From contig CM000207.1 in NCBI GenBank assembly GCA_000002445.1, positions 2,464,001-2,528,000 of the forward strand: 64,000 bases of DNA, in the 5' to 3' direction. Positions 40,131 through 61,542 of this stretch are shown piece by piece. Position numbers and translations under genes: made by a program. The notes beneath the pieces are model-generated. The model worked only from the letters and a program-made list of their open reading frames with translations, was not told where the DNA came from and did no database searches. Positions within the stretch are counted from its first letter, which is position 1, and each line of letters opens with the position of its first letter. Origin of the DNA: Trypanosoma brucei. Its lineage: Eukaryota.

Positions 40131-40584
40131 CAGTCAGAGAAAACTTCTTATTGACAAGAAAACTGGAATCTTTGCAAGTGTTTTCAATCCATCCACAAAC
40201 AGCTTTGTCACCTGAATTTACATTCTTGTTTTCCGCTTCGCATTCCTCCTTCTTATTATGCTTGGAGCACCTTGACTCAGTTTTCTCGCCTTTCCCATCT
40301 TATTTCAGTGTCTGGTGTGCCGCTTTTGTTGACTCCCCCTTATCCAATTTGCACTTCTTTTTGCCACCTTCTTCTTCAACTTTGCATGGGGGTTTGCATT
40401 CATCTCCTGTTCCTTTTGCTTCGCAAGTTGCGTCTGTTTCGGTGACTTTTGTTCTCGCTATCTGGGACTTGGTTTGAGCGCCGGCTACATTCTTTTGTAG
40501 GTTGGTTTTTTTTTCCCTCGCGCAACCGTCAGGACCATGCAGTTGGTACACACCTGATGGTAAGGAGGAAATGCATTTATGCAC
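40130..40584 (-). pseudogene. VSG 3' fragment (C-terminal domain + GPI signal) in inverted orientation
   Basis: The minus-strand ORF 40300..40584 encodes a cysteine-rich VSG C-terminal domain (...CEAKGTGDECKPPCKVEEEGGKKKCKLDKGESTKAAHQ). Downstream on the minus strand, in a shifted frame, lies the GPI-signal-type sequence (reverse complement of gaaaacttcttattgacaagaaaactggaatc, i.e. DSSFLVNKKFS). Confidence 0.7.
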
Positions 40585-40589
40585 ACCAC

Positions 40590-41160
40590 ACCACGAGGAC
40601 GCGGTGATAGCGTGGAATTCAACGCTGGAGACCGGCGTTCCTACTCACTAAAAGACCCTGTTTTTTTTTTTTGAAGAATTGATACCCACAAGTTGGCGAC
40701 CGCATGTGCGCGTTTCTAGGGAAGCGGTCTCCATTTGACGCCCGTTCGATCCCTCCCACGTTGCGTGAACCATGTTTACCATATCTTTCCGCCTCCCCGG
40801 ATGGAGATTTTATCAGGGATTTTGGTTCCCCACCTGAGCATGGCACTGAACCGTGGTGGAAAACTAAGTAATGGTTCTCTCCCCACGGAGCGGTCGCACC
40901 ATATCCGGTGTTGCGGCCGCTGTTTGGATGGAACATTTGACTTCCCAGTTTATTTCTCTTCTGGTACTGGATCCTGGCGCCATATTGAAGCAGATCTATC
41001 CTTAGTGTAAGCTAAATACTCGCAGCCAGATGGGATAGATCTCGGTATTATCTGCGACGAGCACTCTACTTAACCACTAAACCAAGGTAGACAAGGCTCT
41101 TACCCATCCGAAAACGACCCCCGTGCCTGTGAAGGAGCAGAAATAAAAATATTGTGGGCT
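40590..41160. other. Unassigned non-coding element between the inverted VSG fragment and the first VSG: T13 run (40660-40672), tRNA B-box-like GTTCGATCC (40744-40752), short inverted repeats; possibly retroposon or tRNA-derived remnant
   Basis: There is no coherent ORF. A poly(T) (poly(A) on the minus strand) and an isolated T-loop-like motif are present. A 6-bp perfect hairpin (GACCGC/GCGGTC, 40698-40729) lies just upstream of the B-box-like motif. No cloverleaf could be folded by eye. Confidence 0.2.
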
Positions 41161-42702: not shown

Positions 42703-42800
42703 AATGATTATAATAGTAATAGTAATCATAATAATAACTATAATAAATATATAGAAGAGCGTTGTGAGTGTGTATATACGAATATTATAATGAAAATTGT
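42703..42800 (+). repeat. VSG-associated 70-bp repeat (about 1.3 copies)
   Basis: taatagtaatagtaatcataataataactataataaatatatagaagagcgttgtgagtgtgtatatacgaatattataatg matches the 70-bp repeat structure: a TAA/TGA-rich part followed by the conserved GTTGTGAGTGTGTATATACGAATATTATAAT core. Confidence 0.85.
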
Positions 42801-45038
42801 GGTAAAAAGTAAATGAGTGGTGAATATAAAAGATTTTAAACAATATAATGGTCGAAATGGACGTAAGTGAGTAAAAGAGATAACACGATTAATGTTATTA
42901 GAGAAAACACGGAAATACAGAAAGAGAGATGGTATATTGAACAGAAGCAGTTTCAAATATGAATATGGATAGGGGCATCATTATACACAACGAGATGACG
43001 AATGGAAAAATAAGGGAGAGACAAAGTTCAGTGACCAGGTTAACTTCTGGCGCTATGTTATGTGCAAAGTATCGGAAGTTAGCGGAAAGATAGAAACAAA
43101 AATAGAAACCGAAACACATGTATCTGTGACCGCCACTGTTTCAGAGAATTTACAACCTAAAGAATGTATTATTTTCTTCAATATGAGACCGTCACTAGAA
43201 GTAAATTGCATAGAATGTTTTTTACCCAATGAATCAGCTACTGGTTGCAGTTAAATTCTCTTAAACTAGCAAAAACAGCACCAAAGTTTGAAAGACTGGC
43301 AGTAAACGGAAATACGCAATGAAGTATAAACGTTGAGAACAAAAAAAGGTTGCATTGCTTCAAAAGTAGCTAAGACACACTGACACTTAGTATCCCTTTA
43401 CACTCGAGGTAATTGTCAAGATTATTGAATAGAATCAAGTATTTTGTTGTTTTTCTAGAACGAAGACAGGTAGAGACGTGGAAAGTGCATCCCAAATGAC
43501 GGAAGCAGTAAACTGAAAACAAGATGACTTAGTAGAGGTTGATTGAATCTACCTTAGTTTATAGAAACCACAGTAGTCTAGCTGTTTCATACAAGGTTCT
43601 TGTTTCCCTAAAGCTTTCGGTCTCGCTATGTTTAAAAGGAGTCAAAATATAGCACACAAATATAAAAATAAATATCTCAAATGGAAGAAACAGGAGCACT
43701 TAAGTTACGAAGGGAAGTAGTCTCAAGGAAACTAGTAGCACCGACTCTTCTTCAATGTTCATAACGTCCATACGAAAAAAAAGATGAAACACATATAGTA
43801 TGGACCTGAATTGGCTGTACAGTTAGAAGGTGTGACTACAAAGGAAATTAAAAATGATCGGTGCGATCAACCGGCAAGCCTCAAAAAAAACATATTTCAC
43901 TCAAAGCTGGATAGATACAGAAACGGAGATAATGGTGACGATCATGTTTTTAATCCGTTTGGAGTTTCTAATATAAAGTTATAGATACCCAGAAATGTAT
44001 TGGATAATTGTGAGGTGCTATAAAAATTTCTTATGGTATTTAGTAATAATGGAAAACATTGTTGGAAACAATATAATATTATCGGAAGGAGAACTTTACA
44101 TATAGAATTGCTAATGGATGACAGTGGAAAGGAAAAATAAAGCAAAGAAAGTGATTAACACAGGATGTTTATGGAGGAATTATTTATGAATTAGAGGGAA
44201 TTAACAGCAACATTCCTGTAATTTCGTATTGATATACTGGACACGCATTAGGATATTTCAAGGAACAAGTAATCTATATAAAAGCAGTCAATGGTGAACA
44301 AATGACGGTTGCCATTAACAAGTTAATCCAATAAACAAAAGCTCCCAAAGCACAAATGTCCAGTTATTAATAGAAAGAGGAACATCCACGCCTAGGATTT
44401 CGAACAAAAGAAAAAAGCTAACCTTTTTTTTGTAAAAATAAGCAATGTTACATTGTTATTCGACCTGCGGCACCTGGAGCCAATATTGCAGTAAGTAAAA
44501 CAAGCGAACGCCATTGAGGTTAAAAATTTAAGATATAGAGGCTTTTTAGATTATTTGCAAAAACATAAGGGTTTAGTGGTAGAGGAATAAATGAAAAATT
44601 TGATACGCCTGCAGCGGCAGTGGACAAGATTAGTGTAAGTGACTCTAAGTGAGATACAAAGAAACATGACAGAAACTGCCGGCACCAACGTTTAACAGAA
44701 CGCATTTTCCGACCGATTCGGAGGTTCATATCCGCGTTTGAACTTCAACGTCAGAAATCCTACAACAGCAACAGAAACCCATAATTAAACAGCAGAGAAG
44801 CAACAGCCTGTAGTACCTGCGCAGTTTCGAACAAATGTTGCGGCGTGCGCGAACCAGAGTGACATCGAAAACATAAGTTTTCAAAGCGCTATCATCGATC
44901 CACACAAAAGAACAACCAAAATGGAAATTCACAACGGCTTATTCAGAGGCGCTATCCAAAGCCCTGACCACTGCCCGTCGCTGGCAAATGCAGCAATAAC
45001 TGGCTGAGAACCAGCGGTCAAAGGGAAGGAAATGCAAT

Positions 45039-46699
45039 ATGAAAAGGGAGCTGTCCACGATCCACGTCATCGCCAACAAACACTTTTCTTTGAACCACAA
45101 AACCGCACAAGACAACGGTAATGCCCTCAGGAAGAGACAGGATAGACCTACAGATCGAATAGCTGTCTCCCTAACCACACAAAAAACCAAGGTGGATACT
45201 CTTAACTTACAAAAATTCACTTTAGGAAAGCGAAACACAGCAAGGTCTAGAGATTCTAAGGGAAAAAGCCCAGAAGTCCGCAGTTTTGCTGGCGGAATTT
45301 GTGGCCGCGGTATTCGCACAGGATGAAGACTCCTCAGTCGAAGCAATAAAGAGCACGTGTGATGAAGCGGTGTGGCTTCACACCGTCCAAGATAATTATA
45401 TCAAAAATGTACAAACAGCTGCAGCTCGAAATTCTGACCTACTCACAGAAGCCAGAATCCTAACCCTAGCCGCGGCACAGTTCTCCGACCAAACACAACA
45501 GGTGGTACTAACCTCGTTAGCTGCCATTGCAGACCAGCGAGCAACTGCAGCGGCAGCGATCCTAAATCGAGAAACACCAAGCTTACTAGCAGCGGTAGCC
45601 TTGCTGAACGAACGACGCGGCAACGTCCGAGCACTGGCGCGCATTCTAAGCACGCAAGAATCCGCAACTTTCTCAGGGTCGACGGCAGCCGGTGGCGGCA
45701 ACGTCCTCTTTGCCGCGACAACAGTCAAGTGCTTTCTAATAGCAACACTGGACAAGAAACCCACAGCGGAGTGTACAGTAACGGAACAGAGCGCGACGAA
45801 GCTAGCAGATGCAGGCCACCACCTGGCCAAAATAACGAAAATGAAAGCGATACCGCTAACAAAATTTGGCATTCCTCAACTTGGTGTGGACATAGAAACG
45901 AAAGGTACATTCGCCGCAGGCAGTAACCAAGCAAACGAAAATAACAAATGCGCAGACAAACCCATAAAAAGCAGCGAAACCAACGGTTCCTGTTTAACGA
46001 AACTAGCACTAAATCAACCTACAGCGGCACCAACGGACGTGAAACTGAAAGATAAAGACGCCTTCGTAAACGTATCCAAAGAAAAAGACCACTACATCAC
46101 CACTGGTACCCAGGTAGCAAGCGCCACCTATAACCCAAGAGCCCTAACATCCAAACTTCTAGGAAAGATTGCGGATGAAACGGCCGATTTCCCGAGCGGC
46201 GACCCCGCCATTAAGAACGTAATCTATCTCGCACTTAGCCAAGAGAAAAACATCAAGGACAGCACCGACCAAAAAGCAGAAAATGTAAAACCCTGCTTGG
46301 CGGCGCCGGGAACAAACTACAAGACAAAATTTTTTGACTTTCAACGAAGACAACATAAAGTATACTGTTAGGGAACAAACCGTAACCACGAGTGTAAGGG
46401 AGGCTGCAAGCGATTTAAACTACGGAATAACACTAGCATTTTCGCATAAAAGACAACACGGCAATAGCCAGAGCAAGGAATTCCAGAGAGCAGGTGAAAG
46501 CACCGACAAAATCAAAGAAACTGAATGCAGAAATAGAAAAGACAGAGGCAAATACAAGGAAAAGAATGGGTGTGAATTCAAAGATGAGGATTGCAAAGTT
46601 AAAGTGACCACAGCAACAGAAACAACAGAAAACACCACAGAAAGCAATTCTTATGTCATTAACAAGGCTCCTCTTTTGCTTTTATTTTTGATTTTATAA
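45039..46699 (+). pseudogene. VSG: VSG pseudogene (at least 2 frameshifts; degenerate N-terminus)
   Basis: The first ORF 45039..45326 carries the mature N-terminus-like AQDNGNALRK. The main ORF 45286..46371 (its track start is TTG) is a VSG N-domain with an Ala/Thr-rich helical region. A third frame, 46334..46699, ends in a classic CTD plus GPI signal (...GCEFKDEDCKVKVTTATETTENTTESNSYVINKAPLLLLFLIL*). Confidence 0.9.
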
Positions 46700-46732
46700 A
46701 ACTTTTTAGATTTCCCCCTCTGTTTTGCTATT

Positions 46733-46748
46733 CGGATATATTTTAACA
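46733..46748 (+). promoter_or_regulatory. VSG 3'UTR conserved 16-mer (GGATATATTTTAACAC)
   Basis: Near-exact match to the conserved VSG 3'UTR 16-mer TGATATATTTTAACAC. Other copies are at 48031-48046, 52168-52183, 58475-58490 and 61527-61542. Degenerate versions are at about 42692, 51115 and 55612. Confidence 0.85.
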
Positions 46749-46904
46749 CTTGAAAATTCCGCGAAAATAATGTGTGTTTGTGTAAAATTGTGACTTTGTA
46801 AAAAAAAAATTGATCTGATAAAAATTTCTCTTTTTTGTCGCTGATTTTTTTCCAGAAAAACAAGAAGGTAAAAAAATGGCGAGGTTATGGAGGATTGAAA
46901 TTTC

Positions 46905-47270
46905 TAGCGACCATTGTTAGGGTTAAATTTTGGTTTTTTGACAATTTTTGGTTTTCGATTTTTCTAGTGACTTTTGAATTTTTAAGGTTGAGGTTTTTAG
47001 GATTATTAGAGTTAAGGTTTTTTTGTTAGACATTTTTGAGATTTATAAATTTTTTTGGCATTTTTCACATTTTTTAAAGTTTTTGGAGTTGGATTAATTT
47101 TATAAAAAAATTGGGGTTTTAAACTCTTTTATGCGTTTTATATTAATTTTCGTAACTTCAGATTTACACTGAACCCGGCATCAGTTGTGCTAAAACCAAA
47201 AACAAAAGAAAGGAAGGATAGATAGGGTTATGGCTAGAGTTAGGGTAAGAGTTAGGGTTATTCGGGTAGA
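46905..47270 (+). repeat. Degenerate telomere-like (TTAGGG-related) repeat block downstream of a VSG
   Basis: Direct sequence reads: tgttagggttaaatttt, ttaaggttgaggtttttaggattattagagttaaggttttt and gatagggttatggctagagttagggtaagagttagggttattcgggtag (47215-47268). The block is homologous to 51295-51340. Confidence 0.8.
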
Positions 47271-47589
47271 TGTTTTAATTCTCCTTTTTTGGTTTTTTTT
47301 AAATTTGTCATTTTTTCTTAGTGATGCAGCAGCTCTTTCTGTATGTCACCTCTAGGCCTTTTTCACTCAACACGCATCTTCTTCTTCATATTTTTACATA
47401 TTTATTTCATATCCACATCGTTACGATTTATTTCTAACACTTTTTTGAATTTGAGCTCTGCATTTTTCTCTGCGCGCGGCCTCAAAATTTTTTTTATGCT
47501 GGCGCGTGGCAGTTTTGCCTCACAAAACGATTTGCTTTCAAAGAAGAAATAATATAAAAAGAGACCTATTTGGAAGTAGGAGATTATCA

Positions 47590-48000
47590 TGATCAGTGGT
47601 GAAGCATCATCGGCCCGATCTACCGCTGGCAGGCGACGTCTAATGCCGCTCAACTGTCAGTGGCGCGTTTTTAACCCCAAAGGAAAAGACGACAAAGAGT
47701 GCAGATTGATTGAGGAAACCAAACAAAAAGCAGCAGAGCAAGAAAATTGAGAAATACGAGGGAAATATGGCAAACATGACCAGAAAACTCACCACATAAC
47801 CGGAATATGAGGCAGTAAACAAGGATAACAAAAATTATTGTGTATAGAGAAGTGGGAAAGATAACAAGGATGAAAAAGACACAAAAATTCCGTGATTCCA
47901 GTTTTCTCGTCAATAAGAAAATTTCTCTGATGGCTGCTTCTGTTTTAAGTTTGGTAGTATTAAAAGATTTTTCGCTTAGTTTTATTAAATACTTCATTTT
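47590..48000 (+). pseudogene. Orphan VSG 3' fragment (C-terminal domain remnant + GPI signal + 16-mer) immediately upstream of a 70-bp repeat
   Basis: ...KGKDDKECRLIEETKQKAAEQEN... is followed by KKTQKFRDSSFLVNKKISLMAASVLSLVVLKDF, a VSG GPI-signal type. Then comes ctgatatattttaatta at 48029-48045. Confidence 0.7.
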
Positions 48001-48055
48001 TGAGAGAATCTACAAAAATTTGAAACAATCTGATATATTTTAATTATTTTTTAAT

Positions 48056-48195
48056 AGTTAGAGTTATATAATAATTATGATATTAATAGAAGAGCACTGT
48101 AAGTGTATATATACTAATACTATAATAATAATAATAGGATAGTCTTGTGAGTGTGTTTATAATAATGTTATGATAAGAGTTGTGGTGAAGAATGA
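48056..48195 (+). repeat. 70-bp repeats (about 2 copies)
   Basis: ...aatagaagagcactgtaagtgtatatatactaatactataataataataataggatagtcttgtgagtgtgtttataataatgttatgataagagttgtggtgaag. Confidence 0.85.
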
Positions 48196-49589
48196 ATTTA
48201 ATGACAAAAATGGAAGCACCGAAAACAATGTTATGTGTGCAATTGCAGTAATTGAGTAAGTGTGATAGAACGAGATTTTATATGTGTAGATTTAAGCACA
48301 TATGTAAATATGGGTATCATTATACAAAAAGGTGATGGTTATTGATAGGAAGTGGGGGCAGAATGCGGTGTATAGGTCACATGGAATCGATACATTGTCT
48401 GTCGAAGATAAATTACACAAAAAAGAATAAACGAAAGTATGGAATAAAATAACCTAAGAGAAAATAGCACAGTATGAAAGGAAATTACACCGAAAATAAA
48501 TATGCTCCGTATTTCATGTGGAAATAGATATAATCCACTGCGAAGATAGTGCTTTGGAATGTGGTTGTTAATGTGATGGCGAATCCTATTTTTTAGAATG
48601 TGAAGAAATACAAAAAAGAGAAACTGATAGGAGGAGCGGATTGAGAAACTGTGAAGCAATTTAGAAGTATTCTCATCAAATGTAGTAATAATGACCGATG
48701 TGTGCTGGATATGACATAACATTGTCTTGAAAAGGATTTTAGAACTGGAACTACAAATGAGTTATCGCGGATAACAAAACAGACAAAACGCCGAAGTTTC
48801 TTAGAGTAGAACGTGTGTCAAGCTATGAATTATCTCTATGAAGCGAAGGGAAATAATGACGATATTCTTCCAATCTTGTATTGGTATATTTACCAGTCAT
48901 TAATAATTTTCAAGGATCAAGTAAACCATATAAAAGTGGTTGCCGACACAAAGTGAACGCCGCGTGTTTACAAATCAAAAAAGTGGAAGAAGGCGGTTTT
49001 GTGTCCACTGTTTTCAAGTCTTCAGCGACAGTGTCCGATAAAAAACAAGGATGTAAGGCAGAAAGACACTGCAAACCTTTTCGTGATAAACAACAATGCT
49101 TTCTAGTTATTACGCAGATATTCAATGTAGAATTGAAAGAAAATAGAACCAATAAAAAACATGAGATTTGAATTCCCATGCATAGAAATATTTCTTACTT
49201 TCATCCATCAACCTCAAAGATGAGACTGAACAAATACCATTGGTGAAAACCAAAAATAAACACACAAAGTGTGAGCAGGAAGAGCATTCGTAGTGGGTAT
49301 GCAATTAAACTGCCACCTTCAAGGTTACAACAACACAGAACGTAAATAGGCGATGTGTGATGCATCAAAAACAGCCACAACAGTTTAATGCAATTACTGA
49401 AACAAACACAAATGAAGCATAACCCAACTCACCATTGCAACACCCACCAGCAGCGTGACGAACGACTGCCACACAGCTCTAAACAGCACTTGCACGTCCT
49501 ACATACTTTTCAGCACGCCTTAATGAGGTTCTGCTCTGTGATACCCATAAATTCCTTAACTTTTGTCAATGTAGCTAGAGAAACGGACG

Positions 49590-51058
49590 ATGTTTAAGCC
49601 GACAGCAGTGGTGACGCTAACTCTTGTTTTTATCTGCATCGAACAGCATGCAGATGCCCAAGCACAGGAATCTTTGATTAGCGCTGTCACCACACCGTGT
49701 CATGAACTGCAGTATCTAAAAAAGTTAATAGGCCACTTCGAAGGACAATTACAAGCACCGAGCAACAACCTCAAAGATCTGGCGGCGGACTTCACCCAAC
49801 TGACAATCAGCCATGCGTGCTCAACGTCAACTTCAACGAAACAAGCGGTGGGAGCTTTTCTCGCGAAAAGATCTGAAGCAATGCACTAACAAGAAGCGAT
49901 TATTCAAGCTGGTAGAGGCACAGTAACGAAATTGTTAAGAGCACTTAAAGACAAGAGGATGCAAACACGAACACTAATAAGGTCTGCACTAGACAAACTA
50001 ACTCTAAGCGGCGGATCAAACCCGCAAACGGGACAGGCCGGCCTAAGCAGGGCCACCGACGAGCAGCGCGACGTGCAAGACACAGGCGATGGAAAAGACA
50101 GTAACACTTGCGACACCGAAGTCACAGCCGGAGCGCATAAAGAGGAAACAGTGATCACAGAGATACCCGCATCGAAAATATACAGCTTATCCCCGATGCC
50201 AAATTCAACCCACCGAGCTACAAGCTCAAAATAGCTTCGGCAGTGAGGGCTCAATGAGCACAATGAAACCAGGAGCCTACGCGATGACCCCGACATATGA
50301 CAGCACACCGCTCGGACAACTAACAAAAGCGTTCGGAGTAGTGTCAGCAACGCGTGACACGAGAAATGACCGGCCGACCAAAACAACCTTATTTAAGCCA
50401 GCTGGCAAAAATGCTGGCTGCGAAGATGACAACACAGACGAAAAAAAAAACCTAACAACGACTAAAAGATTAGCAGCCCTGCTTTTCCGGCACCGACACA
50501 TCAACATAAAGACAGTCGCCCGACCTCTTCAAAAGAGAAAAAATGACCTATAAAGTGACTCAACATTACGCAAAATAGCCCAGCTATTCAAACACCGAGA
50601 AACCAATAGTGCCGAAGAGGACAACAAGCAAACTTCAGCTGTCAAGGCGTTGCTCCCCAACGGCGAAGCAACCTTAACTTCAGATCTAAAACCGTTGGAA
50701 AACGAGCACATCAGTTACAAAGCAGACAACGGTATAGCAAAGATAAACTTAAAGGAAGCCAACAGCGCCGGCGAAATTGCGAAAACTCTTGATTTTTGTT
50801 TCGCAAAAGAACACGCCGCCAAAGTAGCGGAAAGAGCACAAAAGACAAACCCAGATACTAAAACAGAAGAAAAATACAAGGAAAACACAGAAGAAAAAAT
50901 GCAAAGAAGACAAAGATTGTGAGCTCAAAGATAGTAAATGCAAACTTAAAGAGGGTGTAAAAGCTGAAAATGATGTGAAAACTACAAACACCACAGGAAG
51001 TAATTCTTTTATCATTAAAAAGGTCCCTCTTTTGCTTGTATTTTTGATTATAGTATAA
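49590..51058 (+). pseudogene. VSG: VSG pseudogene (intact signal peptide, then multiple frameshifts)
   Basis: ATG at 49590. The signal peptide is MFKPTAVVTLTLVFICIEQHADA. The body is split over at least four frames (49590..49889, 49932..50234, 50254..50553, 50650..50922). It ends in a CTD plus GPI signal ...CELKDSKCKLKEGVKAENDVKTTNTTGSNSFIIKKVPLLLVFLIIV*. The CTD and 3' flank are paralogous to the 45039-46699 VSG. Confidence 0.9.
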
Positions 51059-51294
51059 CACATTTAAGAAATTTGCTCAATTTTTATGAAATATTCTAAC
51101 GTTTACCAATATCTGACATATTTTAGCACCTTTAAATTCCCCGTAAATTGTGTGCTTTTGTTAAATTTTGAGTGTGTACAATTTTTTGTTGCTTAAAATT
51201 TTCTCTTTTTTCTTTTGTTTTCTGTTGATTTTTTTTTGAATTTTTTGGGTTAGTTTTTTTGGTATGTTCGATGTAGTAAAACAGACAAAAAACC

Positions 51295-51340
51295 TAAAGG
51301 CAAGCTAGAAAATGTTAGGGGTAGGGTCATTCGGGTTGTG
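51295..51340 (+). repeat. Degenerate telomere-like repeat (gttaggggtagggtcattcgggttgtggttacg)
   Basis: Direct read. Homologous to 47250-47275. Confidence 0.75.
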
Positions 51341-51689
51341 GTTACGATTTGTAATTTTTGTTTTAATTTTTTAATGATGCAGCGGCTCTTTCTCGATGAA
51401 ACCCTAACACTTCTTACTCCAGCAGACATCTTTGCTTAAATTCTCTTGATATTCATTTTTACCACGCCGCCGTTACGCTTTTGTTCATTTTGATTTTGTG
51501 AATTTCAGCTCCTCATTTTTGGCTGCGCGCGGCGTTAAACATTTTTTTTCGTTAAAACAAAAGCTGGCGCATGGTCTAAGCTGCTGCACACAGCTTTTAT
51601 TTTTATTTTTTTACAGTGGCGTGTGGCAGTTTCGCTGCGGCCCTCCCTCTGCTTTTAAGGTGAGGTAGAAGCAAGCAAAAGATATTCAG

Positions 51690-52090
51690 CAGCAACACAT
51701 GAGGCCAATTTGGCAGCAAACTTTAGCGACGTGTGCAGACAGCAAGCGTTACACAACAAACGTGACCTGCAAAGCTAACGACTGCAAATGGGAAGGGGAC
51801 AGCGAAACCACTGCAAACCGAAAGATGGAGAAGCGCAGACAAACACAGCAGCAACAGAGGGAACTGTATCAACACAAGGCCCTAATTGTGACAAGTATAC
51901 TGATCCATAGAAATGTGCCAAGGTGCCACGCAAAGCTAAGGAGGGAAAGAAATCTGTTTGTGATTGGATTGATTTCATGGACGGACAGGAAAATTTTTGA
52001 ACCAAAATTCCGTGATTCAAGTTTCCTTGTAAGTAGAAAATTGGCTCTGATGTCTGCTGCTTTTCTGCGTGTGGTATCATTTTAAAGATT
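51690..52090 (+). pseudogene. Orphan VSG 3' fragment (CTD + GPI signal), paralogous to 47590-48000
   Basis: ORF 51699..52085 reads ...TCKANDCKWEGDSETT...EPKFRDSSFLVSRKLALMSAAFLRVVSF. It is followed by ttgatatattttaatac (52167-52183) and a 70-bp repeat. Confidence 0.7.
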
Positions 52091-52295
52091 TTTACTCAAT
52101 TAAATCAAATTTATTAAGTTTATGAAATTTTCTATTTTGAGAAAATTTGCTAGGATTAGCTAACAATTGATATATTTTAATACTTTTCGATAAAATATGA
52201 AAATTTAGAAAAATGTGAATGATAATAGCCTATGATTGCGATGTAAAATTGTAATATGATATGAAATGTGAGTTCTTTTCTGATTTTGGTGAAAT

Positions 52296-52345
52296 AGTAA
52301 TAGACTGTTGTGAGTGTGTATATACTAATATTATAATAAATGTCT
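52296..52345 (+). repeat. 70-bp repeat (partial copy)
   Basis: aatagtaatagactgttgtgagtgtgtatatactaatattataataaatg. Confidence 0.8.
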
Positions 52346-54077
52346 TGACGAACACATGGACTACAAAAATAGAAGAATTTAAAATCAGAGAGGGTACAAT
52401 GGAAGTGAATGAGTGAAGGAAAGTTCAAGGAATATATTTTATACGGAGAAACAGAAAGACAGAGAGAGTGTGGGGAAGAAATTAACGCAATAACAGACGC
52501 CGAAATAAAGAAGGGACTCTCATATGCCAACGAATGTGGAGGCAGTAATTATGAATAAACAGAGCACAGCGACCGAGAAAATGCAACTCCTACGTTTTAT
52601 ACAGTGATATCAAAGGAGAAACTGCTGGCGAAAGTGAGAGGGTTGGAAACGCCGTGAAAAAAGTCCATATATGAGCCAGTTGTGGCTATTTACGAATTGG
52701 AGGGAATAAACAGCGATACCTTTCTAATCCCGTACCTGTATTACAGGAAAACAGTAATACATTTCAATGAGTGGTTAATTGACACAAGGATTGTGACTGA
52801 GAAAACAAAAGATGACAATTAACAAAGCAAAATTGAAGAAGAAAAAGAAACTTTCAGGACTTTAATTGACAAATCTTAGACGGCGTCGTCAACAGCTGAA
52901 AGCAGGCATAAACAAAAGTTTATGCATGCTCTGGAAGAATAAAAGCCTCATCTTCTTATGACAGCGGAATGTGACAACAGCTATATAGCAGTAAATAGAA
53001 CAAATTAGAAACCACAAGATAAGAATCTTAACTCGTAGAAAGTAGTCTGGTGTTTTATATAGCTATAAGAATGAATTTGGGAACAAATAAAAAATATTCA
53101 AAGGGTAATGGACAGGAAGAAAAGTCTGTTAAACAACAGTTATGTCAAGTTCAATAGAAATAGAGAACGAAAATAACAGATGAGAATTCTTACTTTTTTG
53201 CTTTGTCCTGATTAGTTTGCTCGAAGTATCCAATTCTATCTTTTATTTACACAGGAAATACACGCAATAAAACAAGGCAAATGATTTTAAATGTCCAGAT
53301 CAGAGACGGTTGCCCTCAGTATTTTACAAGTAGAGTCTACGTTACTGTTTTTAAAAAGCAATTGAAGCTGGTGGAGCACAGTCAGGCGGTTTAAGCGGCT
53401 GTAAATGGATAGGGTCTGCTCAGTAGAAACAAAATTTAGGAATGTGAAAAAACGCCCGTCCTCAGAGCTGTCACCCCGGATAAAACAGAAAATCATTACT
53501 TACAGCAGTTTTTATGGGCACTAAATAAAATTGCAAGAACAAAAGTGGTGAATAAAAAGGCAATTCCAATGCAAAAATTAACTGCTATACGGGTTTGGCA
53601 AAACGGTTTCTCAAAAGGGTTCAAAGTCATGCGTACGAGTGAAGAGTCAGTGTTATGTAGTCGCTGATAAATTCATCCACAAAACAGGAATTGGACTACA
53701 ATAGAAGAACACAGCAAACATTAATGAAAGATGCTTTAGATATAGAATGGTATTTATCAAATTTGAAAATCGAGGCTATTTGCCTTAAGTGGGTGCCGTT
53801 TTCCGTTACTAAAGGAAGATGCTGGCCTCTTGAGTTCTTCTTTTTTGTTCCATACGTGTTTCTTAAAAGTAACAGACATCATGAAGCTATAACCACACGT
53901 GCTAGCACGTGACTTACAGAACAAGCAGAAAAATCGGCTCCATCGAGGCAACCCTAATATCGAGAAGGGGCGGAAAACAACATACCTACGTCTCCACCGG
54001 CAACCAATTGGCACAAACTCAACTTCTCTTGATATCCTTCACTCTAGGGACACGAGCTAGCACGAAGACACGAATTC

Positions 54078-55520
54078 ATGTCACTGCCCTTTATATGGAC
54101 GATAGCCGTACTAGCCACCGCAACCGGAACATTAGCGACCATTCATGAACACACAAAACAGGTTGCTACAGCTTGCGCCGCTGCCAGACAGTTTGGAGAA
54201 GCTTTAACGGTCATCAAATCAAAGGCAACGGACCCAATCACAAGCCAGGAAAAGTTACAAAAGGACTACACAAGACTTGTCCTCGCCGCTACGGCCACAC
54301 GCGGAGACCTGCGGATTGCGGCAGCAGCACTACTGCCGGTTGCGGGGAAACTGCTAGACGAAACCGCCGCAGATGTTTCCAGGCTAACAACCCTAGCCCT
54401 ACAGGTCACAGCCAAGATTGGCCGGCACCAAGGCGTAAAGGCTGTCCTAGCCGATATTGAATCACTGTCCGTTCCGACCATGGCAGACAGAACACTCAGT
54501 GAAAACGACTGACCAGGAGCCGACGGAGAGCAAATAAGATATACGCCGTTTTCTCACGCCAAAGGCACGCTTAAACAAGAACCAATAGACCAAACAAAGA
54601 CCATAAACGCCCCAGACATTTCACAAACCGGCACAACCCTGGTGTTTATCCATGCACAGGTGGAAACTCAAAAAAGCGGCTTGTCAAACAGCGTGACGAT
54701 CTGCGGAGAAACGGCCAGCAACCCAGGAGCAGACTACGAATCAGCAGCCCCCAACCAAAACCACCACCTACGCATGTCCGGAAGTGAGCTGTTAGACTTT
54801 AACAAACAAATCTACAAGAAGGGGACAACAACCGACGGAGAATACACAGCAGTAACGCCGACGTCCACCAACATCATACCAACGCAGGACTTTGTAACCG
54901 AAAACCTGGATGGCGTAAAAGCAATTGAAAAGGAGTTAAGCGGGATAGCAACCACCGGCAACGAGCTCGTGCAAGCGGCGATAAAAACCGACGAACACAC
55001 TCAACAAGCAATAAGGAAATTGATCCTCAAACACACAACTGAACAAGCCACTTCCGCGGAGGCAAACAAAATCAAAGACACGGTAAACCTCTTATACGGG
55101 GACGACCAGGAAGCTTTCACAGACATAGTCTGGAACCAAGTGGAGGCAGTAACAATTCCGAAATAGGTGATCGCTAATAGAAAAAAGACAGATGTCAAAT
55201 CTACAGAGAAAATTAGCGACCTTAGCGCAAGTGCAACTTCTTGCTTAATTCAAACTGAAAGCAGCGCAAATTCAGGAAAGGCCAAAGACAGCACACCACA
55301 GGAAGTAAGTAAGAAAACAGAAAACAGCGAGAAAACAGAAATAGACAAAAAACAAGAGTAAATTGCTCTAGCCATTCAACCAAGGAGACATGCGAAGCAG
55401 TGACAGGTACTCCTCCTACAGGCAAGGCCAAAGTTTGTGGATGGATTGAAGGCAAGTTTCAGGATTCCTCTATTCTCTTCAATAAAAATTGGCTCTTATT
55501 GCTGCTGCGTTTGTTATTTT
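54078..55520 (+). pseudogene. VSG: VSG pseudogene (intact signal peptide; at least 3 frameshifts/stops)
   Basis: ATG at 54078. The signal peptide is MSLPFIWTIAVLATATG. N-domain pieces lie in 54078..54512 and 54642..55166. The CTD is in 55167..55361. A GPI-signal region in yet another frame (...CEAVTGTPPTGKAKVCGWIEGKFQDSSILFNKNWLLLLLRLLFW) ends at about 55520. Confidence 0.9.
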
Positions 55521-55759
55521 GGTGTAATTTTAGGATTTTTTCAATTATTTGAGAGTTATGAAATATGTTATTTTTACCTAATTCGGTTAATTCGCTAAAC
55601 TTTGATATGTTTGATATAATCTGACACTTTTGATGAAATTGTGCAAAGCTGTAAAATTTTGAAAGTTTAGAAATTAGTGAACAATATGGACTTTGAAGAC
55701 ACAAAACTTTGGTATGCTATTGGCATATGGGCGCAAAGTTGTAAGATGATATCGTATGT

Positions 55760-55895
55760 AAATAATTAATATTCTAATTTGGTTTAGGTTTGTTTATTTT
55801 ATGTATATAAGTGAAGTTTATAATGGTAATAGCAATGATAATGATAGGAGTTTGTTTTGAATGCGTATATTGTAACATTGTTAATATAATAAGAG
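55760..55895 (+). repeat. 70-bp repeats (degenerate, about 1.5 copies)
   Basis: ...taatggtaatagcaatgataatgataggagtttgttttgaatgcgtatattgtaacattgttaatataataagagcag. Confidence 0.75.
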
Positions 55896-56927
55896 CAGTT
55901 TCGACTACCAAGCGGACTACCAAAATTGGAGCACTTAAACAATGTGAAAATGGAGCGGAAGTGAGAGGGAGTTATAGAGAACGAGAACTATTATTTTTAA
56001 ACTAAATACAGAAATTTAAAGAAGAAAGAAGTGATATACATGGACTTTTTTATCACTGTGCGGATTCACGGCTATCGTGGCTACCTTACACTAGTAATGA
56101 GGAAGAAATGTGTCTATGCACATCATATAACATGGCGTGATAGTGTGAGATTCAGCCTTGGAGAACAAGCCACTATCCACCAAAGCCTCCTCATGTGGAG
56201 ATTATTACCAACCAACTTCGCAAACAGATGGTAAACACAACACGGCCACCGTTCTATATACATGGTCTCCATTGCAGGACGCGGCACCACATATAGCTGG
56301 TGCGGCATCTCACCCTGTAAATTTACCACTTGCTCTACAGCTAATGACACGTATACAACTTCGATGGGTTTCCCTTGGACAGGGTACTTAACCCCAAAGC
56401 ATGAAGTATTCACTTTTTCTCAGATTGAGTTGCGCTTCACACAAATAAATATCTTCAACGTCCAAAAGTGCACTCACTATGGCACCACAGCAATCACTTA
56501 CCCCGGTAGATATACCAGTTTTCACGTCGTAACAGTTAGCCTCCGCAAAAAATTTTTATTCTTCCTCGGTACAAGACCCTGACACCACAATGAGGTTGCT
56601 ACCACTAACGCCAGGGGGTTGACGGTGCTTGGAATAGAAAGGATAAAAGTGATAGACCAGTAATTTGATACTTGGAAGAAGCTAAAAGTATTTAGATTTT
56701 TGCAACACACTCTTAAGGAGGGGTCTAAAGATGAATAAAAACTGACACAGTCCAGAAGCCATGGTGCAGAAACTTTCTCGACCAAAATGCATATCTCGTC
56801 AACGGCAAACCAAGAAATCTTAATACACCAACACCTCTCTAGTACCTAGTCAAGGAAAAGTGGAGCAGACCAACGAGGTGCAAAACTTCGAAACGAAAAC
56901 ACAACCTTCTCTTGGTGCACAGCGGTG

Positions 56928-58394
56928 ATGCAAAATCATGCCGTGTATTCTGCGGCTATGGCATTGTTCCTGGAATTTCAATCTCAGCTCAGCTCAGCAG
57001 GGCAAGTATCAGAGCCAGTCAGAAAAAAAACAGTATCAGTGTGCTCGGAACTGAAGTATCTAAAAATTGCAGCATGGAAGATAGAAGAAACAGCAAAGAG
57101 CGGCGAACCAGAGGCCAGAAAACTTGAAGAGTACGCTGATGCGTGGCTTTTACTGGTAATGCACGAAAGACAGGAGCAGAAAAGGCTAGCGACCGCCGCA
57201 CTCGCAGCATACAAGGTACAAAATGCGAAAGAAGCAGACCGATTAGTGTCCCGGCACAGAGCACTAGCGGAAGCCGCCGCACAAAGATTCTTACAAAGAG
57301 CGGCGTACTCTGAGGCTTTGATGTACTCCGAGCATGCCGTACCGAGCCAAACGCCCGCAGCCGACAACGCCGGGCCTCCAAAAACCTGCACATTCACAGC
57401 CTCATTCGCGCATAAAGTGCCAACCAGCTGCGACACAGACCAACAAGAGTCTGCTTTCCTTGGCGACGCAAGCTTCCACAACAAGGGAATCACGCACTTG
57501 CATATACTCAAAGAAGACAGATTAATCCCCCGTATAGGCAAATTTGTAGCAAAACTGAGAGGAACAGTCGACAGCCTGCAAACAGCCGCAACAGATTACG
57601 GCGGCGACAGCGATACCGACGTAACAGCAAATAACATAAAAGCGACACTGACGCTAAGCCCACTTACGGAAACACCAGACGGCGACGGCTACGCCTTAAC
57701 AGTAGACGGCCAAATCAAAGGGACCTGCAAGAAACCAACAGAAAAGGCAGAACAATCGCTGCGGTCGCGTGAATACGTAGCGGAGCCTTTCTTCGAGTGC
57801 ACGAAACAACCACTGCCTTCTGTCCCAGACCCAGAAAACTTCAGCGGAAGCGAACTCAAAAATAACGCTTTAATCAAAAAGTTATACAGAGAGAGCTGGC
57901 AAGTATACAGCGGCAAAAAAATAGAAGACTCTGACGCCGAAAAACAGCTCGAAAAGATATTTGGCGACAACAGTCAAAAAGTTTAAACCAATTTCGTTAC
58001 GCTACTAACAAGCACCAGGCTGCGAGTGGTGGCCGCAGCAGCTGAAAATGCAGCGGACTTGCTTACAATAGCCAAAAACACTCAGTCGGCACAAGCGATT
58101 ATTTTTATGACATCAGCCAACAAGGCGCCAGGAAAAGAGCAGAAACAAGAAACGTCGCAAGGAGGTGGCAAAAAAGATGCAGCAGAAGACAAAGCAGGAG
58201 AAAATAAAGACGGGGACAATAAAACAAACGCAGATGCATGCAAAGGAACTGAAGAGGGTAAATGTGACACAAAAAAATGCGCTTGGGATAAGGACAATAA
58301 AGAGTGCAAAGCTAAAGAGGGGGCAGCAGTTATTTCTTATCTGATGAAGGTCCCTCTACTGCTTGCATTTTTGCTTCTGCAATTAAGTGTTTAA
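56928..58394 (+). pseudogene. VSG: Near-intact VSG: single in-frame TAA (57984-57986) splits an otherwise continuous ~489-codon VSG reading frame; complete CTD and GPI signal
   Basis: ORFs 56925..57986 and 58026..58394 are in the same frame, separated by one stop. The C-terminus is ...CKGTEEGKCDTKKCAWDKDNKECKAKEGAAVISYLMKVPLLLAFLLLQLSV*. The N-terminus (MQNHAVYSAAMALFLEF...) lacks a strongly hydrophobic signal peptide. Confidence 0.9.
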
Positions 58395-58564
58395 AGATTT
58401 TGATTAATTTCATGAAATTCAAGAAATTTAGTATTTTGATATGTTTTCTAATATTGTCTAAATTTGCTAATATTTCATATATTTTAACACTTTTCCACGA
58501 AATGTAAAATTTTTGAAATTTAAAAAATAGAAAAATGAGTATGATAGTGACCTATGAATGTAAA

Positions 58565-58590
58565 GTAGTAGGGTTATAGGGTTTAAGAAA
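58565..58590 (+). repeat. Telomere-like repeat remnant (agtagggttatagggtttaag)
   Basis: Direct read. Confidence 0.7.
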
Positions 58591-58654
58591 CGGATTCTGT
58601 CCTTAGAACTTTTATTTTTGTTAATTTTTTATTTATTTTACGTATATCTTTAGG

Positions 58655-58735
58655 AATATAGTAATGATAATCACAGAGGGTTGTGTTGTGAATGTGTGTA
58701 TATACGAATATTATTATAAGAGTTGTTGTGAAAAC
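58655..58735 (+). repeat. 70-bp repeat
   Basis: atagtaatgataatcacagagggttgtgttgtgaatgtgtgtatatacgaatattattataagagttgttgtg. Confidence 0.85.
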
Positions 58736-59983
58736 TGGATTTGTGGTCAAAATAGTAGCGCTTCAAACAATTAAAAGGCTGCAATAGGGGTAAAGAAGTG
58801 TGAGCAAAGTATGAAGAATATTGTTCAATAAAACAAAGAGAGATATGAAAGAAGATGTAATTTTAACTGTTTCAAACATAAACATGACCATCGGCATCAT
58901 GTAAAAAAGAAATGAAGGAATATAACGTGCAAGCTAAATTGAATGGATTTAACTAACATAACGAAGCGGTAATAGTTGAGAATGACCAAATAAATCATTT
59001 CTAATATGCTTCTAAGAACTCTTCGATAGATGCATTTTTCCTAAAGAAACTTTCATGGATAAACAGCAACATAACAAAGGGAAAGAAGCTTATAAAGTGC
59101 ATATAATTAGTCTATAATTTTTTCTCTAATCAGAACTAACCACGCTTACCAAACAATACCTGAGAAAACAGCTGTTAACTTCATGAAATAATCTGCAAAG
59201 AGCGAAAAACACCACCAAATATAGAAAACCTAACGCAAAGTAGAATAATTAAGCAAAAAGGAAAGGAATTGACGTAATAAAGATATTATTGTATCATAAG
59301 ATAGTGTGGAAGTTCTGACATTTAGTGACCTCTATATTCAGGCTAATTTGAAAGGGTATTAGATAGAACCGAGCTTTTTGTTGTCTTCTAGATTCAAGTA
59401 TGTAAATGTGTCATCAATGAGCTGAAAAGACAGCTGTAGTAGTAGTAGTAGTGTAAAAGTGATGTGAGTTATAAGAGAGAAAAAAATACCGTCACAGAAG
59501 CCAGAAAAATACCACCATCTTGCAAAGAAAATTAACCGACATGGTGAAGCTTCGGTAGTATAGCAGTTACGATAGCTGCACAAGCAAAGGTGTAGCATGT
59601 ACCTTAAAAACATAATAAATGCAATGAAGAAGAAAAGTTCAATACCAAAATGTTACCTGGAAAGACACCTCTGTAATACATAATAAAGCCAGTTATGATT
59701 TTACACAACAGACAAACAGACACAACTGCCAGCAGCTAGATGCAGACGACAAGCGGCAGTGCACAGAAAGCGATCCTCAACTCGGTGCTGAGCACATAAA
59801 AGCCTGGCTAACAGCGGACGTACACGAAAAAGCTGACCAATCAGGCGCAATACAGTGTAAAAGACAGGCTTTCATCTGCTAATGCTACACTGCCTCCTGT
59901 TTCACAAGGTAACAAAACGATAGCACCCTCCAGAAAAACGAAACATCTCTTATAACACGCTAAAGAAAGTGCAATAACTACAC

Positions 59984-61339: not shown

Positions 61340-61526
61340 AAATATGTTTGCAACTGGGATGATAACGCTTGCAAACATTTTAGTTTCCTCTTCAATAATT
61401 AAATGACTATGATGATTATTGATTTTATGAGTTTTGTAGAATTTTAGTGTACCAAAAAACTTTGCTCCATTTTGTAAACATTATGAAATTTTCTATTTTG
61501 AGAGGGTTTTTAAAATTTAAATAATT

Positions 61527-61542
61527 TGATATATTTTAACAC
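61527..61542 (+). promoter_or_regulatory. VSG 3'UTR 16-mer (TGATATATTTTAACAC, exact)
   Basis: Direct read, 188 bp after the stop codon. Confidence 0.9.

What the first reader, a model, noticed from the sequence alone, without database searches (positions are those of the whole stretch)
44900..52400. Two paralogous VSG cassettes, each followed by a telomere-like repeat block and an orphan VSG 3' fragment
The units around VSG 45039-46699 and VSG 49590-51058 are paralogous. Their C-terminal domains and 3' flanks are related (aaattccgcgaaaataatgtgtgtttgtgtaaaattgtgac vs aaattccccgtaaattgtgtgcttttgttaaattttgag). The downstream modules 46800-47560 and 51060-51690 are also related, sharing degenerate TTAGGG repeats and gatgcagcagctctttc / gcgcgcgg...ggcgcgtggcagttt motifs. 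In both units the module is followed by a second, orphan VSG 3' end (CTD remnant + GPI signal + 16-mer; 47590-48045 and 51690-52183). Each orphan abuts the next 70-bp repeat. A silent VSG carrying degenerate telomere repeats downstream, plus a spare VSG 3' end, looks like a fossilised telomeric VSG copy. That spare 3' end is the homology block that terminates gene conversion. The arrangement suggests these array cassettes arose by capture and duplication of telomere-proximal VSGs. They would also supply alternative 3' recombination end-points for mosaic VSG formation.
Basis: seen in the sequence. Interest (0 to 1): 0.55.

Follow-up and report, generated by a model that had tools for sequence, protein, structure and literature searches.

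The report
Composite silent VSG cassettes with telomere-type flank
Two neighbouring silent coat-protein (VSG) pseudogenes in a Trypanosoma brucei-group subtelomere each carry a related non-coding tail with a short telomere-like tract, followed by the leftover 3' end of a different VSG; this looks like a scar of past gene-copying and is a modest curiosity, not a new kind of system.

Summary
The structure is real, but "two paralogous cassettes" overstates it. The window is a T. brucei-group VSG array next to core genes.

**What is shared between units A and B**
- One contiguous 3' block is homologous: the end of a VSGsur/MITat1.2-class C-terminal domain, the 3'UTR with its 16-mer, about 90 nt of flank (shuffle z=38), and a ~300-bp pyrimidine-rich core (z=26).
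- N-terminal domains, upstream regions and orphan C-terminal-domain coding parts are unrelated.
- The orphans share only what all VSG 3' ends of that class share.

**Orphans**
- Both are true extra VSG 3' ends (Pfam PF10659).
- They belong to a different GPI-signal class from the VSG upstream, and sit at the usual distance from the next 70-bp repeat.

**Telomere-like tract**
- In unit A it is the window-wide maximum (31/36 in-phase matches; simulated maximum 23).
- It has G-strand orientation and lies 0.2-0.5 kb after the stop codon.
- In unit B only two hexamers remain, at the homologous position.

**Best reading (confidence about 0.45)**
An incoming VSG was copied together with its own telomere-type 3' flank into resident cassettes. 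The resident 3' ends were left stranded.

**Limits**
- A T. equiperdum orthologue confirms unit B and hints that the core is multicopy.
- No genome-wide test was possible.
- Interest is modest.

The parts
45286..46699 (+). VSG-A pseudogene. A-type N-terminal domain ORF 45286-46371, frameshift, then C-terminal domain + 17-residue-type GPI signal ORF 46334-46699. No start codon or signal peptide in frame.
   Evidence: ORFs. NTD matches VSGsur at E 7.5e-4. The C-terminal 121 aa match the VSGsur C-terminus at E 4.4e-14 and MITat1.2 at E 0.076.
46700..46836 (+). VSG-A 3'UTR (16-mer GGATATATTTTAACAC at 46734-46749) plus about 90 nt of immediate flank, homologous to 51059-51211.
   Evidence: z=38 for 46536-36836-equivalent block 46536-46836 vs 50881-51211; the VSG-A and VSG-B 3' ends form their own class, scoring 67 against 34 or less to all others.
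46837..47221 (+). G/T-rich, C-poor stretch with scattered hexamer-like units (46911-47020) and a 28-bp tandem (47031-47086). About 285 nt longer than in unit B.
   Evidence: Composition (GC skew +0.4 to +0.64, AT skew -0.36 to -0.44). TRF. Not alignable to B above chance (z=1.5).
47222..47263 (+). TTAGGG-like tract, G-strand orientation: ATAGGG TTATGG CTAGAG TTAGGG TAAGAG TTAGGG TTATTC.
   Evidence: 31/36 in-phase matches, the window-wide maximum on both strands; maximum of 30 simulated windows was 23.. Part of the signal is a 12-bp tandem.
47264..47545 (+). Conserved pyrimidine-rich non-coding core A (ATTCGGGT ... TGATGCAGCAGCTCTTTC ... CGTTACG ... TGAATTTGAGCTC ... GCGCGCGG ... GGCGCGTGGCAGTTT).
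   Evidence: z=26. No Rfam match (34), no Pfam match (70), no stable fold (72).
47655..48046 (+). Orphan A: decayed C-terminal domain, 23-residue-type GPI signal (DSSFLVNKKISLMAASVLSLVVL, stop codon lost), 3'UTR with 16-mer at 48031-48046.
   Evidence: Pfam PF10659 at 23.9 bits. tblastn with VSG C-termini from 47655..
48060..48200 (+). 70-bp-repeat remnant(s) that open the next cassette.
   Evidence: Motif at 48143-48162. Similar to 42728-42814 and 58657-58803.
49590..51058 (+). VSG-B pseudogene: signal peptide present, several frameshifts and stops, 17-residue-type GPI signal (SNSFIIKKVPLLLVFLIIV).
   Evidence: ORFs. Orthologue in T. equiperdum at 96% identity.
51059..51211 (+). VSG-B 3'UTR (16-mer TGACATATTTTAGCAC at 51114-51129) plus immediate flank.
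51212..51340 (+). Short G/T-rich stretch ending in TTAGGGGTAGGG (51315-51326) and ATTCGGGT (51329-51336).
   Evidence: The tract is not above chance on its own, but it is positionally homologous to the tract in unit A.
51341..51662 (+). Conserved core B, with a 64-nt internal insertion or duplication relative to A.
   Evidence: In T. equiperdum a scaffold gap falls inside it, followed by a diverged second copy of its 5' half.
51698..52190 (+). Orphan B: near-complete C-terminal domain, 23-residue-type GPI signal (DSSFLVSRKLALMSAAFLRVVSF, stop codon at 52083-52085), 3'UTR with 16-mer at 52168-52183.
   Evidence: Pfam PF10659 at 31.8 bits over profile 5-102/104. tblastn from 51698..
52290..52345 (+). 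70-bp repeat that opens the next cassette.
   Evidence: Exact motif TGTTGTGAGTGTGTATATAC at 52306-52325.

Best explanation
Both units are composite, non-functional array cassettes left behind by duplicative DNA transfer (gene conversion).

**Proposed sequence of events**
1. An incoming VSG of the VSGsur/MITat1.2 3'-end class was copied into a resident cassette.
2. It brought its own 3'UTR and a 0.6-0.85 kb flank of the kind found between telomere-proximal VSGs and the telomere: a G/T-rich stretch, a few TTAGGG-like hexamers in G-strand orientation, then a conserved non-coding core.
3. The resident gene had a 3' end of the other, common class. The usual homologous end-point in the C-terminal domain or 3'UTR was therefore not available.
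4. Copying ran on through the donor flank and was resolved upstream of the resident's C-terminal domain.
5. The resident's C-terminal domain, GPI signal and 3'UTR remain as an orphan at the normal distance from the next 70-bp repeat.

**Shown:** the anatomy; the limits of homology; the class difference between each VSG and its orphan; the significance and orientation of the tract in A; conservation of unit B in T. equiperdum.

**Inferred:** conversion as the mechanism; the telomeric source of the flank; whether there were one or two founding events.

The elements themselves need have no function beyond serving as possible recombination substrates.
For: - Homology runs unbroken from the CTD tail through the 3'UTR and flank into the core. 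It stops at about the same point in both units (47545 / 51662).
- Everything else is unrelated: NTD, upstream region and orphan CTD.
- Each upstream VSG has a complete C-terminus of its own. VSG-A matches the VSGsur C-terminus at E 4e-14. Both orphans are Pfam-recognised C-terminal domains of the other GPI-signal class.
- The orphan 16-mers lie 60-140 nt before a 70-bp repeat, as in ordinary cassettes of the window. The 16-mers of VSG-A and VSG-B lie 1.2-1.4 kb before one.
- The tract at 47223 is the window maximum for telomere-likeness, on the strand expected for a telomere downstream of the VSG.
- Composition switches from G/T-rich to C/T-rich at the same place in both units.
[quoted passage not shown] VSG-to-telomere distance in expression sites is 200-1590 nt (PMC2567434). 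Conserved non-coding elements lie between VSG and telomere in T. congolense (PMC6152948).
- Segmental conversion is active in this very array. Against T. equiperdum, 56600-57800 is 60-87% identical and 51400-52000 is 83-93%, on a 96-99% background.
Against: - No bona fide telomeric VSG flank could be compared, so the telomeric source rests on a 6-unit tract in A and 2 units in B.
- In T. equiperdum even those two units are mutated (TTAGCGGTAGTG).
- The tract is followed by a shared non-telomeric core, so it was interstitial in the common ancestor of the modules.
- Two independent illegitimate joins would not be expected to end at the same point of the donor flank.
- Part of A's score comes from a 12-bp tandem duplication.
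- Only two units were seen, and they are adjacent, which also fits local duplication.
Confidence: 0.45

Rival explanations
1. A single ancestral composite cassette (VSG + module + orphan) was duplicated in tandem. Later segmental conversions overwrote the upstream region, the N-terminal domain and the orphan C-terminal domain in one or both copies. Only the 3' block remains recognisably shared.
For: - The two units are adjacent.
- The modules end at the same point.
- Divergence is equal in the CTD tail/3'UTR (70%) and the core (72%).
- Both orphans are about one C-terminal domain long.
- Conversion tracts that replace an NTD, or a core + orphan-CTD block, are seen between the window and T. equiperdum.
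Against: - Overwriting the orphan CTD needs 5' homology inside the module, so the donors would themselves have to be composite units.
- Three separate regions per unit would have to be overwritten while the block between them is spared.
Confidence: 0.25
2. The module has nothing to do with telomeres. It is a decayed intergenic spacer, possibly the stacked remains of older VSG 3' ends. The hexamers are a chance or slippage product in G/T-rich low-complexity DNA.
For: - The tract in B is at chance level.
- The G/T-rich part is not alignable (z=1.5).
- A 12-bp tandem inflates the tract in A.
- Core A carries a 16-mer-like motif about 100 nt after a GPI-signal-like motif, and gives a weak shuffle signal against VSG 3' ends (summed z=2.6, 2/200).
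Against: - 31/36 in-phase matches is far above the simulated maximum of 23 and is the window-wide maximum.
- Orientation and distance fit a telomeric flank.
- Core B and the T. equiperdum copy show no VSG-3'-end signal (z=0.6, -0.1).
- An nhmmer profile of eight VSG 3' ends finds nothing in the modules (best E 0.67).
Confidence: 0.2
3. Each module marks a former chromosome end. The array grew outward when an eroded telomeric VSG end captured distal array sequence, leaving a relic telomere tract at each old end.
For: - The units are the second and third cassettes after the boundary with core genes.
- The tract orientation matches the present direction towards the telomere.
- Both modules stop at one point, as if a true repeat tract began there.
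Against: - There is no telomere repeat at the module-orphan junction.
- Capture by homology would be expected to fuse 3' ends, not leave a spacer plus a whole extra C-terminal domain.
- The divergent block seen against T. equiperdum suggests B-like core + orphan copies exist elsewhere.
Confidence: 0.07
4. The orphans are simply the C-termini of the upstream VSGs, displaced by insertion of the module.
For: Each orphan is on the same strand as the VSG upstream and follows it directly downstream.
Against: - VSG-A and VSG-B have their own C-terminal domain, GPI signal, stop codon and 16-mer.
- The orphans belong to a different GPI-signal and 3'UTR class.
Confidence: 0.01

Closest known systems
3' flanks of telomere-proximal VSG genes with 'TTAGGG-like' repeats (Aline & Stuart 1989, as cited and used by Hall et al. 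2013, PMC3708902; expression-site ends in Hertz-Fowler et al. 2008, PMC2567434)
   Same: Degenerate hexamers lie a few hundred nt after the VSG stop codon, on the G-strand as read in the VSG sense. The distance falls within the published 200-1590 nt.
   Different: Here the tract is 2-6 units long, lies inside an array, and is followed by a conserved non-telomeric core and another VSG 3' end instead of kilobases of (TTAGGG)n. Sequence homology to real telomeric flanks could not be tested.
C-terminal VSG gene fragments in the silent archive (own knowledge of Berriman et al. 2005 and Marcello & Barry 2007; 'VSG genes and gene-fragments' in Horn 2014, PMC4155160)
   Same: The orphans are C-terminal domain + GPI signal + 3'UTR fragments in an array, next to 70-bp repeats.
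   Different: Here each fragment is preceded by a homologous non-coding module that is physically continuous with the 3' end of a complete VSG pseudogene of another 3' class.
3' donation / altered 3' end in duplicative VSG transposition (Michels et al. 1983 and Hall et al. 2013, PMC3708902)
   Same: The downstream limit of VSG conversion normally lies in the C-terminal-domain coding region or the 3'UTR and depends on local homology. That is the rule whose failure I invoke here.
   Different: Those events take place in the expression site and produce a hybrid gene with one 3' end. Here two complete 3' ends lie in series in a silent array.
Conserved non-coding elements CNE3/CNE4 between VSG and telomere in T. 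congolense (PMC6152948)
   Same: Non-repetitive 150-200 bp conserved non-coding sequence downstream of VSGs, in one orientation.
   Different: Different species and no sequence comparison made. Those elements are at true telomeres.
Short interstitial telomeric sequences of other eukaryotes (review PMC6410037)
   Same: A few degenerate telomere units inside a chromosome, usually read as scars of repair or of former ends.
   Different: The link to a specific gene 3' flank, and the pairing with an orphan gene end, are particular to VSG arrays.

Membership tests
VSG gene (silent array copy) | N-terminal domain homologous to known VSGs | tested here: met
   VSG-A ORF 45286-46368 matches VSGsur residues 20-180 at E 7.5e-4. 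Pfam models miss it. For VSG-B only the signal peptide and general layout are visible; Pfam finds nothing.
VSG gene (silent array copy) | C-terminal domain, GPI signal, and 3'UTR with the conserved 16-mer | tested here: met
   The VSG-A C-terminus matches VSGsur 378-490 at E 4.4e-14. Both genes end in a 17-residue-type signal. 16-mers at 46734 (1 mismatch) and 51114 (2 mismatches).
VSG gene (silent array copy) | Intact reading frame | tested here: not met
   VSG-A lacks a start and has a frameshift near 46340-46370. VSG-B is broken into at least five ORFs. Both are pseudogenes.
VSG C-terminal domain fragment (Pfam PF10659) | Score above the Pfam gathering threshold (21.4 bits) | tested here: met
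   Orphan B 31.8 bits over profile 5-102/104; orphan A 23.9 bits over profile 78-104.
VSG C-terminal domain fragment (Pfam PF10659) | No N-terminal domain upstream in any frame | tested here: met
   tblastn with the last 200 residues of eight VSGs starts at 51698 (B) and 47655 (A). Nothing VSG-like is found in the modules.
Telomere-proximal VSG 3' flank | TTAGGG-like repeats 3' of the VSG, G-strand in the sense of the gene | tested here: met
   Met for unit A: 31/36 at 47223 on the + strand against a simulated maximum of 23. For unit B the result is inconclusive: 16/24, at chance level, but positionally homologous.
Telomere-proximal VSG 3' flank | Distance from VSG to repeats within the range seen at expression sites (200-1590 nt, PMC2567434) | tested here: met
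   Stop at 46699 to 46917/47222 is 218/523 nt. Stop at 51058 to 51315 is 257 nt.
Telomere-proximal VSG 3' flank | Flank runs into a long (TTAGGG)n tract at a chromosome end | tested here: not met
   The tract is 2-6 units long and is followed by a core, an orphan and further cassettes. If the module belongs to this family, it does so only as a relic.
Telomere-proximal VSG 3' flank | Sequence homology to flanks of bona fide telomeric VSGs | not testable with these tools
   No T. brucei telomeric sequence could be fetched. The only external locus is L001, an internal array.
70-bp repeat (cassette 5' boundary) | Conserved GTTGTGAGTGTGT-type motif directly after the orphan 3'UTR | tested here: met
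   Motifs at 48143 (3 mismatches) and 52306 (exact), with 0.01 expected by chance. The modules themselves contain no such motif.

The most novel reading that the evidence does not exclude
The composites are footprints of traffic from telomeres back into the silent archive. VSGs that once sat next to a telomere (expression site or minichromosome) were written into internal arrays together with their telomere-proximal flank.

The stranded orphan 3' end of the common class would then work as an adaptor. It would let a gene with a rare 3' class be copied out again into expression sites occupied by common-class VSGs.

A genome-wide census of such modules would then date and count archiving events. 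That bears on the open question of whether novel VSGs are preserved after use (Horn 2014, PMC4155160).
Probability: 0.15. Interest if true: 0.65.

Novelty: new variant of a known kind. Interest (0 to 1): 0.35.

Why it matters
If the module really is a telomere-proximal flank, internal array cassettes that carry it record transfers from chromosome ends into the archive. That direction of flow is assumed but poorly documented. It bears on whether new (including mosaic) VSGs are stored after use.

The class mismatch between each VSG and its orphan also suggests a simple rule for when conversions overrun the normal 3' end-point.

If the module is only decayed spacer, the finding is routine array debris.

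Tried and rejected
1. **Fetching more T. brucei loci.**
   - Three protein searches returned only 1-7 VSGs.
   - Look-ups for P0001, P0003, P0009 and two window ORFs found nothing.
   - Only the T. equiperdum contig L001 was retrievable.
None of three L001 gene products tested is identical to a window-encoded protein, so none could be looked up.
   - Ten ORFs from the finding region and the neighbouring cassette are not in the protein collection.
2. **Module ORF as bait.** Searching 1.84 billion representative proteins gave one low-complexity hit.
3. **Metagenome scan** for TGATGCAGCRGCTCTTTCT gave 35 chance matches; none resembles the core.
4. **Functional readings of the module.** Rfam gave nothing relevant in 44000-53000. 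Pfam gave nothing on module ORFs in either strand. DNA folding z-scores ranged from -0.7 to +0.6.
5. **Core as a third, older VSG 3' end.** nhmmer profile best E was 0.67. Shuffle tests were weak for A (z=2.6) and absent for B and T. equiperdum. I kept this only as a lead.
6. **Module as a degenerate 70-bp repeat + upstream region of an internally deleted cassette.** There is no 70-bp motif, no similarity to any upstream region in the window, and the composition is T-rich rather than TRR-type.
7. **Whole-cassette duplication and displaced C-termini.** See the rival explanations.
8. **Literature.** Ten full-text searches found no description of telomere-like tracts or this module inside arrays. 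The key papers were not held: Marcello & Barry 2007; Cross et al. 2014; the chromosome I paper (Hall N. et al. 2003, cited from memory); Callejas et al. 2006. Absence of a report is therefore not evidence of novelty.

Full report
**What the window is.**
- The 451-aa ORF at 59984-61339 is a B-type VSG (Pfam VSG_B, E 4e-59). It is 91% identical to a T. equiperdum VSG and 86% identical to T. brucei VSG 1206.
- The T. equiperdum OVI contig carrying that gene (L001) is collinear with window 50099-64000 at 96-99% identity outside a few blocks.
- The left 30 kb of the window holds ordinary genes: a RING + Ras-type GTPase, a nucleoside transporter, and leucine-rich-repeat pseudogene pieces.
- A plus-strand VSG array starts at about 41.2 kb. 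The finding therefore concerns the second and third cassettes of a T. brucei-group subtelomeric array, next to the chromosome core.

**Checking the observation.**
- BLASTN of 44900-48100 against 48101-52400 gives four collinear matches:
  - the end of the VSG C-terminal domain plus 3'UTR and about 90 nt beyond it (46630-46836 ~ 50986-51211, 70%, E 4e-21);
  - a core of the downstream module (47314-47495 ~ 51367-51549, 72%, E 1e-14, continuing at 47489-47518 ~ 51606-51635);
  - the 3' end of the orphans (47881-48050 ~ 52001-52187, 70%).
- Shuffle controls give z=38 for the CTD tail/3'UTR/flank and z=26 for the core. They give z=1.5 for the G/T-rich stretch with the hexamers and z=-0.1 for the orphan CTD-coding parts.
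- The orphan GPI-signal/3'UTR similarity (z=22) is generic. In an all-against-all comparison of eleven VSG 3' ends, orphan A vs orphan B scores 60, while each scores 59 and 66 against an unrelated T. equiperdum gene. The VSG-A and VSG-B 3' ends score 67 with each other and 34 or less with everything else.
- N-terminal domains give no tblastx hit. The regions between the 70-bp repeats and the genes give no BLASTN hit.
- What is paralogous is therefore one contiguous 3' block, not two cassettes.

**The orphans.**
- Both reach the Pfam gathering score for the VSG C-terminal domain: B covers almost the whole profile, A the last 27 positions. VSG homology starts abruptly at 51698 and about 47655.
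- They are not the displaced ends of the genes upstream.
  - VSG-A's last 121 codons match the C-terminus of VSGsur at E 4e-14 and weakly match MITat1.2.
  - Both VSG-A and VSG-B end in a 17-residue-type GPI signal, a stop codon and their own 16-mer.
  - The orphans carry the 23-residue-type signal (DSSFLV...).
- The orphan 16-mers lie 60-140 nt before a 70-bp-repeat motif, as in the ordinary cassettes at 42.7 and 58.7 kb. The 16-mers of VSG-A and VSG-B lie 1.2-1.4 kb before one.
- The orphans therefore occupy the canonical 3' position of the cassette. The VSG plus module looks like the inserted part.

**The telomere-like tract.**
- I scored every position of both strands for in-phase matches to (TTAGGG)n. 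The block at 47223 gives 31 of 36. This is the window-wide maximum and is far above the maximum of 23 in 30 simulated windows.
- A 12-bp tandem (AGAGTTAGGGTA x1.9) contributes to that score. Even so, the best 24-nt window reaches 21 matches, against a simulated maximum of 18.
- The tract is on the plus strand. This is the G-strand in the sense of the VSG and points towards the present chromosome end.
- Unit B keeps only TTAGGGGTAGGG, which is at chance level on its own (16/24 against a simulated mean of 16.6). It does lie at the homologous position, immediately before the shared ATTCGGGT that opens the core. In T. equiperdum even this is mutated.
- Composition changes at the same place in both units: G/T-rich and C-poor before the tract, pyrimidine-rich after it.
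[quoted passage not shown] 2013, PMC3708902, citing Aline & Stuart 1989). The VSG-to-telomere distance in 17 expression-site clones is 200-1590 nt (PMC2567434). The distances here (about 220-520 nt) fit.

**The core.**
- The ~300 bp after the tract is the best-conserved non-coding part, and I could not identify it.
- There is no relevant Rfam match, no Pfam match to ORFs on either strand, and no unusual folding.
- A profile of A+B finds no other copy in the window or in L001 except the orthologue.
- By eye, core A shows a GPI-signal-like motif followed about 100 nt later by a 16-mer-like motif, as in a real VSG 3' end. A profile of eight VSG 3' ends finds nothing there. Shuffle tests are weak for A and null for B and T. 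equiperdum. I keep this only as a lead.

**Evidence from T. equiperdum.**
- Unit B is present in the orthologous position, so it is not an assembly artefact of the window.
- The scaffold has a run of N inside the core. The sequence after the gap starts with a second version of the core's 5' half that is 75% identical to B. The copy before the gap is 94% identical.
- The block 51400-52000 (3' half of the core, spacer, orphan CTD) is 83-93% identical, on a 96-99% background. This resembles two obvious conversion blocks in neighbouring VSG N-terminal domains (56600-57800 and 59600-60800).
- Whether this is a conversion from a paralogue or a collapse of paralogous reads, it implies further B-like copies of core plus orphan in that genome. 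This is indirect evidence and rests on one draft assembly.

**Mechanism.**
- I think the most likely history is a duplicative transfer in which a VSG of the VSGsur/MITat1.2 3' class entered a cassette whose resident gene had the common 3' class.
- VSG conversions normally end in homology within the C-terminal-domain coding region or 3'UTR (PMC4155160; PMC3708902).
- With mismatched classes that end-point is missing. Copying would then continue into the donor's flank and be resolved upstream of the resident C-terminal domain, stranding it.
- The G-strand hexamers and their distance suggest a donor flank of the telomere-proximal type.
- Two observations do not fit two independent events. The modules end at the same point, and the units are neighbours. 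One ancestral composite, duplicated and later overwritten by segmental conversion, is therefore a serious rival. The two readings share the founding event.
- A non-telomeric origin of the module, and the 'former chromosome end' reading, remain possible at lower probability.
- A functional role has no support from the tests I ran.

**Novelty and value.**
- The ingredients are all known: VSG pseudogenes, C-terminal fragments, TTAGGG-like tracts next to telomeric VSGs, and 3' end exchange.
- The combination inside an array, with a conserved core, is at most a new variant. I could not check the papers most likely to have described it (Marcello & Barry 2007; Cross et al. 2014), because they were not held.
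- Its value would lie in a census. If modules of this kind prove to be telomere-proximal flanks, they mark telomere-to-archive transfers. That bears on whether novel VSGs are preserved after use (PMC4155160).
- The genome-wide search that would decide this could not be run here.

Noticed in passing
window 56600-57800 and 59600-60800 (vs L001): Against the T. equiperdum orthologous array, the N-terminal-domain region of the VSG at 56925-58490 is only 60-87% identical, and that of the VSG at 59984-61339 is 87-94%. Flanks are 96-99%. These look like lineage-specific segmental gene conversions limited to N-terminal domains.
   Followed up: partly
L001 1393-1402 (N run) and 1403-1520; window 51400-52000: The T. 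equiperdum scaffold has a gap inside the module-B core. After the gap comes a diverged second copy of the core's 5' half (75% identical to B). The core-3'-half-to-orphan-CTD block is unusually diverged. This suggests the core (with orphan) is a multicopy repeat that breaks short-read assemblies.
   Followed up: partly
window 40520-40030 (- strand) and 39842-39814: A third orphan-like VSG C-terminal fragment (…DSSFLVNKKFSLTVASIVLFVAI*, 16-mer at 40035-40020) lies on the minus strand at the very start of the array. About 180-200 nt after its 16-mer lies AGGGTTATGGCTATAGTAATGGTAACAGT, 86% identical to the telomere-like tract of module A (E 1.5e-4 in a small search). A 9-bp tandem (AGAGTTAAA-like x5) lies at 39727-39683.
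   Followed up: partly
window ~40500-41000 (- strand): A ~0.5-kb element ending in A12 sits between the minus-strand C-terminal fragment and the first plus-strand VSG (start 41183). From memory only, I recognise it as resembling a RIME/ingi-type retroelement. It marks a divergent strand switch at the core/array boundary.
   Followed up: no
window 47424-47447: Core A contains CGATTTATTTCTAACACTTTTTTGA, a 16-mer-like motif with one inserted base. It lies about 100 nt after TGATGCAGCAGCTCTTTCT, which resembles GPI-signal coding sequence. It may be a relic of an even older VSG 3' end. Statistics are weak, and the motif is absent in core B.
   Followed up: yes
window 8102-9121, 16584-18068 (-), 27504-29017: Non-VSG genes lie in the left part of the window: a RING-finger + Ras-family GTPase, a nucleoside transporter, and two adjacent leucine-rich-repeat ORFs that look like one broken gene. 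The window therefore spans the transition from chromosome core to subtelomeric array.
   Followed up: partly
window 58300-58505: The VSG ending at about 58400 has a 17-residue-type GPI signal (…VPLLLAFLLL). Its 3'UTR is of the class seen in the orphans, and no module follows it. The module therefore goes with the VSGsur/MITat1.2-type 3'UTR and not simply with the GPI-signal class.
   Followed up: partly
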